Positions 13,362-29,810 of a stretch of DNA of 64,000 nt are shown one piece after another. Position numbers and translations under genes: made by a program. The notes under the pieces are model-generated. The model saw only the letters and a list, made by a program, of their open reading frames with translations. It searched no databases and was not told the origin of the DNA. Origin of the DNA: a virus. Each line of letters opens with the position of its first letter. Position 1 is the stretch's first letter. The stretch lies in IMG/VR virus record IMGVR_UViG_3300045051_000531, one strand, 5' to 3'.

Positions 13362-13364
13362 AAG

Positions 13365-13437
13365 TCGCCGCGGAGGGATTCGAACCCCCAACATCTACGA
13401 CCTCAACGTAGCGCCTCTGCCAGTTGGGCTACGCGGC
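13365..13437 (-). tRNA. tRNA-Leu(GAG), short variable loop
   Basis: Cloverleaf; loop TTGAGGT; A73; no long variable arm. Confidence 0.8.
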
Positions 13438-13438
13438 G

Positions 13439-13515
13439 TGGTACGCCTGGGTGGACTCGAACCACCAACTGACTCCATTTTGAGTGGAGCACCTCTGCCG
13501 TTGGGTTACAGGCGC
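13439..13515 (-). tRNA. tRNA-Leu(CAA), short variable loop
   Basis: Cloverleaf; loop CTCAAAA; encoded CCA. Confidence 0.85.
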
Positions 13516-13518
13516 GTC

Positions 13519-13608
13519 TGGTGGGATGGGGAGGAGTCGAACCTCTTGCCCCGAAGGGAACTGGTTTACAGCCAGCCGCACTGCCGTCGTACCTTATGAC
13601 CTCATCCC
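13519..13608 (-). tRNA. tRNA-Tyr(GUA)
   Basis: Loop CTGTAAA, variable arm, encoded CCA; D-arm enlarged and irregular. Confidence 0.82.
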
Positions 13609-13611
13609 ATG

Positions 13612-13688
13612 TGGTACCGGAAGTGGGAGTCGAACCCACATAGATCTTGGTTCTGAGCCAAGCATGTCTCCTGTTGCATCATTCCGGC
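13612..13688 (-). tRNA. tRNA-Leu(CAG), short variable loop
   Basis: Cloverleaf; loop CTCAGAA; encoded CCA. Confidence 0.85.
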
Positions 13689-26440: not shown

Positions 26441-27783
26441 AAGACCTCTTCGCACCGGACCCCAAGCCGCCGGCGCAGAAGCCGGGAGACGGGGTCACCT
26501 TGTCTCCAGGTCAGGATGAAGCCGCGAAGCGCGTCCTGGCTCCACAGGGTCGGGTCTCCATCCTGACGGGTCCAGCTGGTTGTGGGAAATCCACGATCAT
26601 CAACCATCTCCGCGAAACGGTGCCCTGCACGATCGCCGCGACGACTGGCAAAGCCGCGATGCACATCGACGGCTGCACCGTGGACTCCCTGTTCTGTTTC
26701 AACCGGGACAACTACCGGGTCTGGAACGAGGACTTCCTGACGTACGTGATGAGGGAAGCCGCGGATCTCATCATCATCGACGAGGCCTCCATGATCGGGA
26801 AAAGGATGGCCAATCTGATCTACGAGATCGCCGTGGCCCACAAAAAGCGGCTCCTTCTCGTCGGTGACTGGGCCCAGGCCCGTCCGGTCAAGGATGACTG
26901 GATCACGAACTCCAAGATGATGGCGGACTACGACCTCATCAAGTTGACGGAGTGCCACCGGCAGAGCGAGGGCCCCTACCTGGAGGCCCTGAACGATGTC
27001 AGGCTCGGGCATATCTCCGAAGCCACGGAAGCCCTGTTCAAGTCGCGTGTCGGTTTGAAGCCGCCGGAGGGCAGCCACGTCATCCGGGCCTTCGCGACCA
27101 ACGCGAAAGCTGACGCCTTCAACCAGGCCAACCTGTGGAGGCTCGTCGCCCTCGGTGGCGCCACGGCGTTCCGGCTCTTCGCGACATACCACGATGCCCG
27201 GGATCCCAAGAAGCAGGCCGATAAGCCGCGGGACGAGGGCTACAAGCTGGACGCCATCGAAGCCACGAACTTCGCTCACGGGGAACCCTTCGCGCTGGGG
27301 TGCCGCGTCGTCTGCACCTACAACGAACCCGAGTTCAAGTCTTACGTCAACGGTGACACCGGGGACCTCATCGGGGGATCCTGCCAGGACGGCAGATCCC
27401 TGCAGTCCGCGCTGGAGGCCTTCGCGAAGAACGAGACTCCGTTTCGGATCGAGGCTCTCCAGATCAAGCTGGACCGGGGCCCCGTGGTCCTCGTCAGGAC
27501 CCTGGAGCGGGAGAAGAAGGATGCCCTGGACCGCGTCCAGGACGTCATCACCGGGTTCCCGCTGCGTCTCGGTTACGGGATCACGATCCATAAGAGCCAG
27601 GGCATGACGGTGCAAGCCGCACAAGTCGACCTGGAGTCCTTACTGGCGTTCCCCGATAAGGAGAGCCGCCACGGACTCGCGTATGTTGCCCTGAGCCGAA
27701 CCAAGACGCTCGAAGGGCTCTATCTCCGCAACTGGGCCCCAGAAGCGATCTTCTGCGACCCCGAGATCAGAGGATTCCTATGA
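26437..27783 (+). CDS. SF1B helicase (Pif1/RecD/Dda-like)
   Basis: TGPAGCGKS, IIIDEASM, LVGDWAQ, GITIHKSQG and AYVALSR. Confidence 0.92.
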   Translation: MKDLFAPDPKPPAQKPGDGVTLSPGQDEAAKRVLAPQGRVSILTGPAGCGKSTIINHLRETVPCTIAATTGKAAMHIDGCTVDSLFCFNRDNYRVWNEDFLTYVMREAADLIIIDEASMIGKRMANLIYEIAVAHKKRLLLVGDWAQARPVKDDWITNSKMMADYDLIKLTECHRQSEGPYLEALNDVRLGHISEATEALFKSRVGLKPPEGSHVIRAFATNAKADAFNQANLWRLVALGGATAFRLFATYHDARDPKKQADKPRDEGYKLDAIEATNFAHGEPFALGCRVVCTYNEPEFKSYVNGDTGDLIGGSCQDGRSLQSALEAFAKNETPFRIEALQIKLDRGPVVLVRTLEREKKDALDRVQDVITGFPLRLGYGITIHKSQGMTVQAAQVDLESLLAFPDKESRHGLAYVALSRTKTLEGLYLRNWAPEAIFCDPEIRGFL

Positions 27784-28097
27784 CCCGTGTCGTCGAGGTC
27801 GTCCTGCGCGAAGTCAGGGAGCAAAAATATCTCATGGAGATCCCAGACGATCGCGAACTGGAATGGATCAAGCGGTACTTCTGGGACGCCAACATAAGCT
27901 CGTATGTTGATCCGATCGACGAGGACTACGTGGAGACCGATGTCACGCGCGTCGAAGGACTGGATTCTGACGTCGTCGAAAAGATGCCGGGGCACATAAC
28001 GCGCAAGATCCGGTATCTCGATGCCGACGCAGCCGCAGAGGTCGATGGTGTGTTCGAACAGCTCCGGCGAGAAGCTCAGGCCACGACGAACCGGTAG
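27780..28097 (+). CDS. hypothetical protein
   Basis: 105 aa, ATGA coupling; ends at TAG just before the suppressor tRNA. Confidence 0.6.
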   Translation: MTRVVEVVLREVREQKYLMEIPDDRELEWIKRYFWDANISSYVDPIDEDYVETDVTRVEGLDSDVVEKMPGHITRKIRYLDADAAAEVDGVFEQLRREAQATTNR

Positions 28098-28103
28098 CCC
28101 CAG

Positions 28104-28176
28104 GCGTCCGTACCTCAGTGGCAGAGGAGCGGTTTCTAAAACCGGCCAGTCGCGGGTTCGATCCCCGCCGGACGCA
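28104..28176 (+). tRNA. amber-suppressor tRNA (anticodon CUA)
   Basis: Canonical cloverleaf numbering puts CTA (28136-28138) at positions 34-36, with U33 and A37; G1-C72, A73; no encoded CCA. Confidence 0.85.
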
Positions 28177-28216
28177 GTACCTTGCTCAATCAACAGGAAC
28201 CCATAGAAAGGGAACC

Positions 28217-28540
28217 ATGCGCCAGTAGCTAACTCACTTCTTCGTTTGGGTCAGAACCGACTTATCGGTCCCCCAGCAACTCGTTCAGGCCGTCCATGCC
28301 GCTCACACGGCTGGGGCCAGGTTTACAGATCTCCCTGATCAACTCAGCGTTGTGGTTTGCGCGCTTCCCGATGAAGCCGCGATCGATGAGCTCGTCAAGT
28401 ACCTCGATCTCGTTGGGATCACCTATGTCGTGTTCCGGGAACCCGACCTCGGCGACACCAGGACCTCCGTTGCTACGGCGCCACTGACGGCGTCGCAGCG
28501 TCGCGCCCTGAGGCACTACCAGCTCTGGGGGTCCCAGTGA
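28217..28540 (+). CDS. PTH2-like (peptidyl-tRNA hydrolase II fold) protein with in-frame TAG at codon 4
   Basis: RBS GAAAGGGA, then ATG CGC CAG TAG; continues FVWVRTDLSVPQQLVQAVHAA...VFREPDLGDTRTSVATAP...RRALRHYQLW. Confidence 0.72.
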
Positions 28541-28614
28541 CCCCATACCTGGCTAGAGGCCCTCCGAGACACCTGGATGCCCGACGTAACCCAACCACCC
28601 AACATGGAGTCTGT

Positions 28615-28899
28615 ATGCCCACCAACACCGCCGACACCGTCGACTTCTACCGCCAGTTCACCGAAGAGGAGCGCGCCGCGTTCCACGCCAAGCGCATCGC
28701 GCTTCGCGACCAGATCAAGGAGCTCGCCGGTCACCAAGTCCTGGCCAAGGAGACCCTGAGGCAGCCGCATCACGAGGTCTTCAAGGTCGGCCCGATCATG
28801 GCGCACGCCCACTGGCGCGCCAAACGGATCACGGATCTGCTCCGGGAATACCACGTTCACCGGAGAACCGGCAAGGAGGCCGCGCACCACGTGGCCTGA
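28615..28899 (+). CDS. hypothetical protein
   Basis: RBS GGAG; 94 aa. Confidence 0.6.
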   Translation: MPTNTADTVDFYRQFTEEERAAFHAKRIALRDQIKELAGHQVLAKETLRQPHHEVFKVGPIMAHAHWRAKRITDLLREYHVHRRTGKEAAHHVA

Positions 28900-28950
28900 A
28901 CAAGACCCAGCTAGCTGGAAACAGCTGGCTGGGTCGCATTGAAAGGAATT

Positions 28951-29376
28951 ATGACCTACGAGCAGCACGACAGGCTCAAGATAATCGGCGGGGTCCTGCT
29001 CATAGCGGCCCTTATAGCCTGGGTGGTCGCTGAGTTCGCCGTGACGAAGTCTTTCGTTGGGGCGCTGGTCAGTAAGGGCATCTCGGTGTCCTACAGCCGG
29101 GACTACGAGGACGACGAGACCACGGCGACGAAACGCTACGAGCTCACGTTCTACGTCGACGGTAACATGAAGACCGTTCTCGTTGAAAAACAGCGGGCCA
29201 CGCGCATCGGCTGGAGTGAAGCGGCTGCCCTCCAGAAGCTGGAGGCCAACAACTCGGAACCAGCTGAGTTCACGCACGCCAAGGTACAGAGGCAGTACGT
29301 CGTCAAGACGCGCGGCTGGATCATCGATGACACCGTTATCGAGATCACCGATCTCGCAACTATAAAAGCGGAGTAA
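28951..29376 (+). CDS. hypothetical membrane-anchored protein
   Basis: One N-terminal hydrophobic segment. Confidence 0.6.
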   Translation: MTYEQHDRLKIIGGVLLIAALIAWVVAEFAVTKSFVGALVSKGISVSYSRDYEDDETTATKRYELTFYVDGNMKTVLVEKQRATRIGWSEAAALQKLEANNSEPAEFTHAKVQRQYVVKTRGWIIDDTVIEITDLATIKAE

Positions 29377-29378
29377 CC

Positions 29379-29810
29379 ATGAAAACACTCGAACAGATCA
29401 TGGGGTACCAGTCCGAGGCCCTCGACGGCCGTGACCTTTACAGGCTCATGGACTTCATCCCAGAAGCCGATCTACCCAAGCTCAAGCTCGAACTGAAACC
29501 CGAGTACGTCGGGAAGCACGCCGCGGTTCCCCTGACCCGCGAAGCCGTTCTGGAGCGCCTGAAGCGCGATCTCGAGTTCGCCTTCGAGAAGGCGCTCAAC
29601 AAGCGTGGGATCTCGGCCAGCCTGATGGTCGAGGTCGTCGCGATGTGGAATTGGGTCCTGGAAGAGGGGCTCGAGAAGTGCCCCGAGGACATGTACGCCC
29701 AGTACGGGCTCCCGTTCCTCAAGGCCACCGCGCTGAAGCATGGGTTCGAGAACCCCATCGGCGATGACCGCGGTGACGAGTTCAAGTACAGCGCTGAAGG
29801 CGAGTACTGA
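29379..29810 (+). CDS. hypothetical phage protein
   Basis: 143 aa with RBS GGAG. Confidence 0.65.
   Translation: MKTLEQIMGYQSEALDGRDLYRLMDFIPEADLPKLKLELKPEYVGKHAAVPLTREAVLERLKRDLEFAFEKALNKRGISASLMVEVVAMWNWVLEEGLEKCPEDMYAQYGLPFLKATALKHGFENPIGDDRGDEFKYSAEGEY

What the first reader, a model, noticed from the sequence alone, without database searches (positions are those of the whole stretch)
28104..28540. Amber-suppressor tRNA gating an adjacent PTH2-like gene that has TAG at codon 4
Seen: tRNA(CUA) ends 40 nt before a good RBS and ATG CGC CAG TAG. The frame then continues for 103 codons with PTH2-family-like motifs, and no ATG lies between the TAG and the conserved N-terminal strand. TAG is otherwise used as a real stop in many genes here, so this is not wholesale recoding. 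Inference: a self-contained readthrough circuit in which the hydrolase is made only when the suppressor is active, perhaps to clear peptidyl-tRNA produced by suppression or translation stress.
Basis: partly seen in the sequence, partly recalled or inferred. Interest (0 to 1): 0.8.

Follow-up and report, generated by a model that had tools for sequence, protein, structure and literature searches.

The report
Stop-codon-gated phage hydrolase gene
A 191-kb phage that otherwise uses the normal genetic code places a UAG-reading tRNA 40 bases in front of a small tRNA-hydrolase-like gene whose fourth codon is UAG. Dozens of distant phages, some lab-grown, keep the same pairing, so the enzyme is probably made only when that tRNA overrides the stop.

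Summary
tRNA(CUA) lies at 28104-28176. Forty bases on come an AAGG-type ribosome-binding site and ATG CGC CAG TAG (28217-28228), then 103 open codons to TGA at 28538-28540. The next canonical start is 41 codons in, past five invariant residues.

The protein has a PTH2 fold (pLDDT 90.9; TM 0.73-0.79 to solved Pth2 structures). TAG ends about 24% of this phage's genes, and I found no other gated gene, so the genome is not recoded.

The early stop is conserved:
- Of 54 non-redundant related phage loci, 26 have "start + 1-10 codons + stop" directly before the domain. The stops are 23 TAG, 3 TGA and 0 TAA.
- 19 of the 23 TAG gates have a TAG-reading suppressor tRNA (18 CUA, one UUA) within 5 kb.
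- Two TGA gates have tRNA-UCA nearby.
- Cultured phages BF, GAP32, ME3 and RsoM2USA show the same gate, unannotated or N-terminally truncated in GenBank.
- The base after the gate stop is A in 26 of 38 cases, against 21 of 123 at ordinary TAG terminators.

Best reading: a suppressor-tRNA-dependent translational gate (about 0.7). What the enzyme does, and why it is gated, is inferred only. I found no published description. This scan has noted the same design on other DNA, with notes in at least 99 genomes.

The parts
28104..28176 (+). Amber-suppressor-type tRNA, anticodon CUA. It has a 7-bp acceptor stem, a 4-bp D stem, an anticodon loop UU-CUA-AA, a 5-bp T stem with a GTTCGATCC loop and discriminator A73. 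No CCA is encoded. There is one G.G mismatch at the top of the anticodon stem.
   Evidence: ARAGORN; Rfam RF00005 58.3 bits, E 1.2e-11. 39 of 46 distinct suppressor tRNAs beside relatives share Y32-U33-anticodon-A37-A38.
28177..28216 (+). 40-nt spacer with a Shine-Dalgarno-like AAGGGA (28208-28213). No promoter-like or terminator-like site on the + strand, so the tRNA and the gene are probably one transcript.
   Evidence: Sequence. The promoter and terminator scan of 27400-29500 found nothing on the + strand. The region folds less well than shuffles, z = +1.83.
28217..28228 (+). Gate: ATG CGC CAG TAG. This is a three-codon leader that ends in UAG, in frame with the domain.
   Evidence: The same design occurs in 26 clean and 6 ambiguous cases among 54 related loci, and in 4 cultured phages.
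28229..28540 (+). PTH2-fold domain: 103 codons plus TGA.
   Evidence: AlphaFold2 pLDDT 90.9. Foldseek top hits are all Pth2 or Bit1 structures, TM 0.73-0.79. The profile of A1 against PDB sequences gives 2zv3 at E 3.7e-7. PF01981 is hit by 8 of 9 aligned members. Invariant residues are R9, D11, Q20, H23, A24, H26, E49, F69, E71, P72, D73, T79 and L99.

Best explanation
This is a two-part translational gate.

- The phage tRNA(CUA) and the PTH2-fold gene are transcribed together.
- Ribosomes start at ATG 28217, make Met-Arg-Gln and meet UAG.
- If release factor 1 wins, only a tripeptide is made. If the charged phage tRNA(CUA) wins, an amino acid goes in at a non-conserved position ahead of the first strand, and the whole 107-residue enzyme is made.
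- Output therefore follows suppressor activity, meaning the amount, maturation and charging of the tRNA relative to RF1.

Shown here: the anatomy, the fold, normal TAG use elsewhere in the genome, conservation of the gate, and the pairing of stop codon with anticodon.

Inferred: that suppression happens, and that the enzyme removes acyl or peptidyl groups from tRNA 3' ends. I give about 0.3 to the specific idea that it handles by-products of readthrough at the roughly 24% of genes that end in TAG.
For: - Anatomy.
- No usable start after the stop.
- Only one gate in the genome, and TAG is a true terminator.
- Conservation: IMG/VR relatives carry MKTLDKL*, MNDP*, MT* and similar leaders. Cultured phages BF (MTH*), GAP32 (MAQ*), ME3 (MT*) and RsoM2USA (ML*) do too, and each has a tRNA-CUA.
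- Survey of 54 non-redundant loci: 26 clean gates with 23 TAG, 3 TGA and 0 TAA, against 7/6/7 for the upstream stops of ungated members (Fisher p 4e-4).
- tRNA-CUA is the commonest tRNA in these loci, 44 against 15 for the next.
- 19 of 23 TAG gates have a CUA or UUA tRNA within 5 kb, and one more has it at 7 kb.
- Both TGA gates that have a suppressor nearby have UCA (L053 and L073; p 0.004). The window's nearest relative, L053, is one of them.
- Stop context fits weak termination and good suppression: +4 is A in 26 of 38 and T in 1 of 38, against 21 of 123 and 35 of 123 at ordinary TAG terminators.
- The gate lies on both sides of the deepest well-supported split of the family tree.
- Only the tRNA and this gene are shared between the loci.
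- The XacN1 authors found two tRNA-CUA genes and no target (PMC5852040).
Against: - There is no direct evidence of suppression, of the protein, or of hydrolase activity.
- The window's +4 base is C, not the common A.
- The window's own protein gets no Pfam hit at E <= 1.
- The tRNA has a G.G mismatch in the anticodon stem and no encoded CCA.
- TAG-terminated genes show no enrichment of back-up stops (median extension 32 codons against 25, p 0.55). Efficient suppression would therefore be costly, and activity may be low or brief.
- Exceptions exist. L061 (a 74%-complete contig) has a TAG gate and no CUA among 20 tRNAs. L103 (a complete genome) has a TGA before the domain and no suppressor among 37 tRNAs.
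- 20 of 54 family members are ungated.
- The loci are related to one another, so the p-values are rough.
Confidence: 0.7

Rival explanations
1. The gate is the same, but the logic is negative feedback. The enzyme deacylates the suppressor's own aminoacyl or peptidyl form. More readthrough then makes more enzyme, which lowers the charged suppressor and holds readthrough at a low set level.
For: - 9 of 20 ungated family members still have a tRNA-CUA within 5 kb, so the link between enzyme and tRNA goes beyond the gate.
- Only the tRNA and the enzyme gene travel together.
- The genome is not adapted to strong suppression.
Against: - There is no evidence on substrate.
- Classical Pth2 acts on N-blocked aminoacyl-tRNA in general (established knowledge).
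- It leaves open what the suppressor is for.
Confidence: 0.15
2. No suppression is needed. ATG-NNN-TAG is a tiny upstream ORF, and ribosomes that terminate there reinitiate at the next codon (often AUU or AUC) or start there directly. The tRNA is a neighbour for other reasons.
For: - The codon after the gate stop is ATT, ATC or ATA in 15 of 38 cases. AUU is a known rare bacterial start, as in infC (my own knowledge).
- Six loci have a canonical start between the stop and the first strand.
Against: - In the window the codons after TAG offer no canonical or common near-cognate start.
- It does not explain the bias of 23 TAG, 3 TGA and 0 TAA, the adjacent suppressor tRNAs, or the switch to tRNA-UCA at TGA gates.
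- It does not explain TAGs inside the domain in L074 and L094 with a tRNA-CUA alongside.
Confidence: 0.08
3. The gene is dead, or the TAG is an assembly error or private mutation. The tRNA serves other purposes.
For: The window's protein is the most divergent of its group (end branch 1.26) and alone misses Pfam PTH2.
Against: - The frame is open for 103 codons with all 13 family-invariant residues.
- The model is confident.
- The early stop is the rule in the whole 12-member clade around the window and in cultured phages.
Confidence: 0.03
4. The phage reads TAG as a sense codon genome-wide or in a late-gene block, as the code-15 phages do, and this gene is just one example.
For: A suppressor tRNA is present. 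Known recoded phages carry such tRNAs (Borges et al., bioRxiv 10.1101/2021.08.26.457843, listed).
Against: - TAG ends 39-40 genes with coding signal.
- In-frame TAGs between coding stretches are all gene ends with their own ribosome-binding site and start.
- Scans for gated or interrupted genes found only this one.
Confidence: 0.02

Closest known systems
Stop-codon-recoded phages with suppressor tRNAs (TAG read as Gln, "code 15"; crAss-like and Lak phages; Borges et al. bioRxiv 10.1101/2021.08.26.457843; Peters et al. PMC9523058)
   Same: A phage-encoded tRNA(CUA) overrides UAG in a host that uses the standard code. It is proposed to control when proteins are made.
   Different: In those phages many genes, mostly late ones, carry in-frame TAG, and TAG is no longer a terminator in those blocks. 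Here TAG ends about a quarter of the genes and a single small gene is gated, at codon 4, with the tRNA beside it.
Archaeal and eukaryotic peptidyl-tRNA hydrolase 2 (Pfam PF01981; PDB 1q7s, 2zv3, 3erj, 1wn2, 1xty)
   Same: It shares the fold and the R-x-D-L, Q-x-x-H-A and T-A motifs, and the size is about 100-120 residues.
   Different: Identity is 12-20%. The loop that holds GKGK in the archaeal enzymes is two residues shorter, with Gln in place of Lys in the alignment. The acidic motif is E-P-D rather than D-A-G. No activity is known for the phage branch.
Orphan amber-suppressor tRNAs of jumbo phages (XacN1, PMC5852040; ME3 "tRNA-OTHER, anticodon CTA")
   Same: These are the same kind of tRNA in standard-code phages, and the same phages carry the PTH2-like gene.
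   Different: The XacN1 authors read through 18 terminal amber stops and found no target. The candidate target proposed here is an early, internal UAG that gene callers skip.
Synthetic suppressor-tRNA gates and feed-forward loops (PMC7969014; PMC13276491)
   Same: An amber codon early in a gene, together with a suppressor tRNA, makes expression conditional and cuts leak.
   Different: Those are engineered. This would be a natural, conserved counterpart.
Programmed readthrough in viruses (Q-beta A1, retroviral gag-pol; review PMC13517186)
   Same: A stop codon is read through to make a longer product.
   Different: Those use host near-cognate tRNAs and cis RNA signals to extend a protein that is functional either way. 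Here a dedicated tRNA is encoded, no downstream structure is seen, and the unsuppressed product is a tripeptide.

Membership tests
PTH2 peptidyl-tRNA hydrolase (PF01981) | Four-stranded alpha/beta PTH2 fold | tested here: met
   Model pLDDT 90.9. The eleven best Foldseek hits are all Pth2 or Bit1 chains, probability 1.0, TM 0.73-0.79.
PTH2 peptidyl-tRNA hydrolase (PF01981) | Significant sequence match to the family model | tested here: inconclusive
   The window's protein alone has no Pfam hit at E <= 1. 8 of 9 aligned relatives hit PF01981, best 5.9e-9. The profile of the alignment hits Pth2 of M. jannaschii at 3.7e-7.
PTH2 peptidyl-tRNA hydrolase (PF01981) | Conserved active-site residues. 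From my own memory of Sulfolobus Pth2 mutagenesis, these are a Lys in the GKGK loop and an Asp in D-A-G; I could not check this in a held paper. | tested here: inconclusive
   R-x-D-L, Q-x-x-H-A and T-A are kept. An acidic E-P-D aligns with D-A-G. The Lys loop is two residues shorter, with Gln aligned to Lys.
PTH2 peptidyl-tRNA hydrolase (PF01981) | Hydrolysis of N-blocked aminoacyl-tRNA | not testable with these tools
   This needs an enzyme assay.
Nonsense-suppressor tRNA | Complete cloverleaf with an anticodon complementary to a stop codon | tested here: met
   Rfam 58.3 bits, full length 1-71. ARAGORN cloverleaf with CUA.
Nonsense-suppressor tRNA | Anticodon loop suited to decoding (U33, purine 37; A37-A38 favoured in efficient amber suppressors, from my own knowledge of Yarus's extended anticodon) | tested here: met
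   The loop is UU-CUA-AA. 39 of 46 related suppressors have Y-U-anticodon-A-A.
Nonsense-suppressor tRNA | It is charged and reads UAG in vivo; which amino acid it carries | not testable with these tools
   Similarity to typed tRNAs gave no clear isotype.
Genome-wide TAG recoding (code 15) | TAG in frame in many genes and not used as a terminator there | tested here: not met
Readthrough driven by a cis RNA element | A stable structure just downstream of the stop | tested here: not met
   28177-28300 folds less well than shuffles, z = +1.83.
Pyrrolysine system (ARAGORN's label "tRNA-Pyl") | PylS and PylBCD genes and the unusual tRNA-Pyl shape | not tested
   The label follows from the CUA anticodon alone. 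The tRNA has an ordinary D arm, a 5-nt variable loop and an ordinary T loop. I did not search for pyl genes.

The most novel reading that the evidence does not exclude
The tRNA and the hydrolase form an autonomous, mobile control device. The enzyme acts on the suppressor's own acylated form, or on what readthrough produces, while its synthesis reports the balance between suppressor and release factor. The pair would then set, or sense, the level of stop-codon readthrough in the infected cell. That would be a natural translational feedback circuit built from a tRNA and one gene, kept in hundreds of phages of many hosts.
Probability: 0.2. Interest if true: 0.9.

Novelty: new variant of a known kind. 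Interest (0 to 1): 0.75.

Why it matters
- It gives a concrete, testable target for the orphan suppressor tRNAs of standard-code jumbo phages, which the XacN1 authors could not find.
- It shows that a gene family with thousands of members is systematically missed or truncated by gene callers, for example in BF, RsoM2USA and GAP32.
- It would be a natural example of single-gene control by a dedicated suppressor tRNA, a design so far known from synthetic biology.
- It may be an evolutionary stepping stone towards the full stop-codon recoding seen in other phages.
- Several of the carriers are cultured phages, so it can be tested directly.

Tried and rejected
- Megablast of the region against GenBank phages gave no match. 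The helicase next door has only relatives of 28% identity or less, so the host remains unknown.
- Pfam and PHROGs on the window's protein alone: no Pfam hit, and one PHROG of unknown function.
- Guessing the inserted amino acid by similarity: within the genome the best match is an odd short-armed tRNA-Leu(CAA) at 71%. Against 385 typed tRNAs the scores are low and no isotype is consistent. I dropped this.
- The search for other gated genes in the genome, by coding potential and by [quoted passage not shown], found only this one on the coding strand. The candidate at window 51071 has a non-coding stretch after the TAG. The coding score is weak for short genes, so small gated genes could have been missed.
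- Back-up stops after TAG-terminated genes show no enrichment.
- Conserved neighbours: none.
- Promoters, terminators or a readthrough-stimulating structure: none.
- Six literature searches found no description of the gate (on Pth2 catalysis). Powers et al. 2005 was not held, so the catalytic residues rest on my memory.
- IkeLoa (cluster C mycobacteriophage) reads ATG TAG GTG. The GTG is well spaced from the ribosome-binding site, so I count it as ungated.

Full report
**1. What is there**

The window is the minus strand of bases 83875-147874 of a 191,518-bp IMG/VR phage record. The record has a 127-bp terminal repeat, 62.6% G+C and 13 tRNA genes.

- At 28104-28176 (+) lies a tRNA with anticodon CUA. 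Rfam scores it at 58.3 bits over the full model.
- ARAGORN draws a normal cloverleaf with loop UU-CUA-AA, discriminator A and no encoded CCA. There is one G.G mismatch at the top of the anticodon stem.
- Exactly 40 nt further on, after an AAGGGA run, come ATG CGC CAG TAG (28217-28228). Then follow 103 open codons to TGA at 28538-28540.
- The next ATG, GTG or TTG in frame is GTG at 28352, 41 codons in. That lies beyond the first strand and first helix of the model, and beyond five of the thirteen invariant residues.
- No promoter-like or terminator-like site separates the upstream genes, the tRNA and the gene on this strand.
- The RNA around the start folds less well than shuffled sequence.

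**2. The protein**

- Alone, it has no Pfam hit.
- With eight relatives from IMG/VR (alignment A1) it folds with pLDDT 90.9. The best solved matches are all Pth2 or Bit1 structures, with TM 0.73-0.79 and probability 1.0.
- The profile of A1 hits M. jannaschii Pth2 at E 3.7e-7. Eight of the nine members hit Pfam PTH2.
- The motifs R-x-D-L, Q-x-x-H-A and T-A are kept. The loop that carries GKGK in archaeal enzymes is two residues shorter.
- The family is large: 4,403 clusters at 50% identity with E <= 0.001. Many database entries begin inside the first strand, as expected if gene callers had to choose an internal start.

**3. The genome is not recoded**

- Among ORFs with coding signal, stops are TGA 84, TAA 43 and TAG 40. 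A second count gave TGA 83, TAA 43 and TAG 39.
- The five places where coding signal continues in frame across a TAG are ordinary gene junctions. Each has its own ribosome-binding site and a start within four codons.
- Two scans for gated genes found only this one on the coding strand.
- Genes ending in TAG have no excess of nearby back-up stops.

**4. The early stop is conserved**

- The nearest IMG/VR relatives (44-50% identity) read MKTLDKL*, MNDP*, MT* and MT* with TAG, and MMNKNTAYE* with TGA, directly before the conserved strand.
- Cultured phages do the same: Serratia BF (MTH*), Cronobacter GAP32 (MAQ*), Acinetobacter ME3 (MT*) and Ralstonia RsoM2USA (ML*).
- In GenBank the stretch is unannotated in BF and RsoM2USA and N-terminally truncated in GAP32.
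- Each of these phages has a tRNA-CUA: 450 nt upstream in ME3, about 3 kb downstream in BF and GAP32, and 13 kb away in RsoM2USA.
- XacN1 carries the domain fused behind a 180-residue N-terminal part, with MK* (TAG) four codons before the annotated start. Its authors reported two tRNA-CUA genes and no target (PMC5852040).

**5. Survey**

A search with A1 gave 65 loci, 54 of them non-redundant.

- 26 are clean gates: a start, 1-10 codons and a stop, no start before the first strand, and a domain that begins within a few codons. Their stops are 23 TAG, 3 TGA and 0 TAA.
- Six more have an alternative start. Two carry a TAG inside the domain. Twenty are ordinary, with upstream stops of 7 TAA, 7 TAG and 6 TGA.
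- tRNA-CUA is by far the commonest tRNA in these loci (44, against 15 for the next). It is always on the gene's strand, usually within 100-850 nt on either side.
- 19 of 23 TAG gates have a CUA tRNA (one has UUA) within 5 kb. L055 has one at 7 kb.
- The two TGA gates with a suppressor in reach (L053 and L073) have tRNA-UCA, and no TGA gate has CUA (Fisher p 0.004).
- Leaders are 2-3 codons long in 28 of 38 gates.
- The base after the stop is A in 26 of 38 and T in 1 of 38. At ordinary TAG terminators of the same loci it is A in 21 of 123 and T in 35 of 123. From my own knowledge of E. coli work by Bossi, Miller and Tate, A or C after the stop weakens termination and favours suppression.
- The loci are related to one another, so these p-values are rough.

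On a tree of the domain, the gate occurs on both sides of the deepest well-supported split. The tree needs at least three changes, or eight by parsimony. The window sits in a twelve-member clade that is entirely gated, next to the TGA/UCA locus L053. No other gene is shared between the window's neighbourhood and any of the loci.

**6. Exceptions and an unexplained point**

- L061 (a 74%-complete contig) has a TAG gate and no CUA among 20 tRNAs.
- L103 (a complete genome) has a TGA before the domain and no suppressor among 37 tRNAs.
- Nine of the twenty ungated members still have a tRNA-CUA within 5 kb.
- The codon after the stop is an Ile codon in 15 of 38 gates. This keeps a reinitiation or AUU-start reading alive for some loci, but not for the window.

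**7. Reading**

The simplest account of all this is a suppressor-dependent gate. The position just ahead of the conserved domain fits that account. The unsuppressed product is a harmless tripeptide, and any inserted residue is tolerated. That in turn matches the diversity of the suppressor tRNAs, which have no common isotype and include one long-armed form.

Why a tRNA hydrolase should be gated this way is open. I rank the options as follows:
- Coupling of the enzyme to the by-products of readthrough: about 0.3.
- Negative feedback on the suppressor: about 0.15-0.2.
- A pure timing or threshold device: the remainder.

**8. Known or new**

I found no paper that describes the gate. Within this scan the same design has been noted in at least 99 other genomes, with several follow-ups reaching the same verdict. 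I read those after my own survey. One lead from them, extra gated genes or arrest-peptide leaders in the operon, was checked here and not found in this genome.

Noticed in passing
window 13364-13688 (-): The three genes that ARAGORN calls tRNA-Leu (GAG, CAA, CAG) are only 75-77 nt long, with short variable loops. Bacterial tRNA-Leu normally has a long variable arm. The CAA one is the closest relative of the tRNA-CUA in this genome (71%).
   Followed up: partly
window 27780-28097 (+): The upstream 105-codon ORF ends in TAG six bases before the tRNA. If read through, it would run 13 codons into the tRNA gene to a TAA.
   Followed up: no
window 28537-28899 (+): The downstream frame can start at a GTG that overlaps the TGA of the hydrolase gene (GTGA), or at ATG 28616 behind a GGAG. 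It has no homologue in any related locus.
   Followed up: partly
L074:about 5100 and L094/L095:about 5070: In these relatives the in-frame TAG lies inside the PTH2 domain (profile positions about 26-39), not before it. A tRNA-CUA lies 250 nt away.
   Followed up: partly
L081:6713-6807: This TAG-gated locus has a 95-nt tRNA with anticodon UUA (ochre type, expected to read UAG by wobble) instead of CUA. The tRNA carries a long insertion.
   Followed up: no
L103 / L120 (G004, complete 191,623-bp genome): A TGA lies directly before the domain, with no canonical start after it and no suppressor among the 37 tRNAs. This could be natural UGA leakiness, another start, or a dead gene.
   Followed up: partly
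L050:952-1803 (XacN1 ORF364) and L068-L072: These are fused forms, with an N-terminal part of 120-180 residues carrying H-D-like motifs ahead of the PTH2 domain. Most have a tRNA-CUA within 0.4-2.5 kb. I did not identify the N-terminal domain.
   Followed up: no
L011:1477-1814 (BF), L052:1407-1850 (RsoM2USA), L012:1479-1584 (GAP32): These are GenBank annotation gaps or N-terminal truncations exactly where the gated gene lies. Several Erwinia and Yersinia jumbo phages also show no feature under the match.
   Followed up: partly
38 gates: ATG ACN TAG (Met-Thr-stop) is the commonest leader (Thr is the last residue in 12 of 38), and ATT or ATC is the commonest next codon (15 of 38). Neither is explained.
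   Followed up: no
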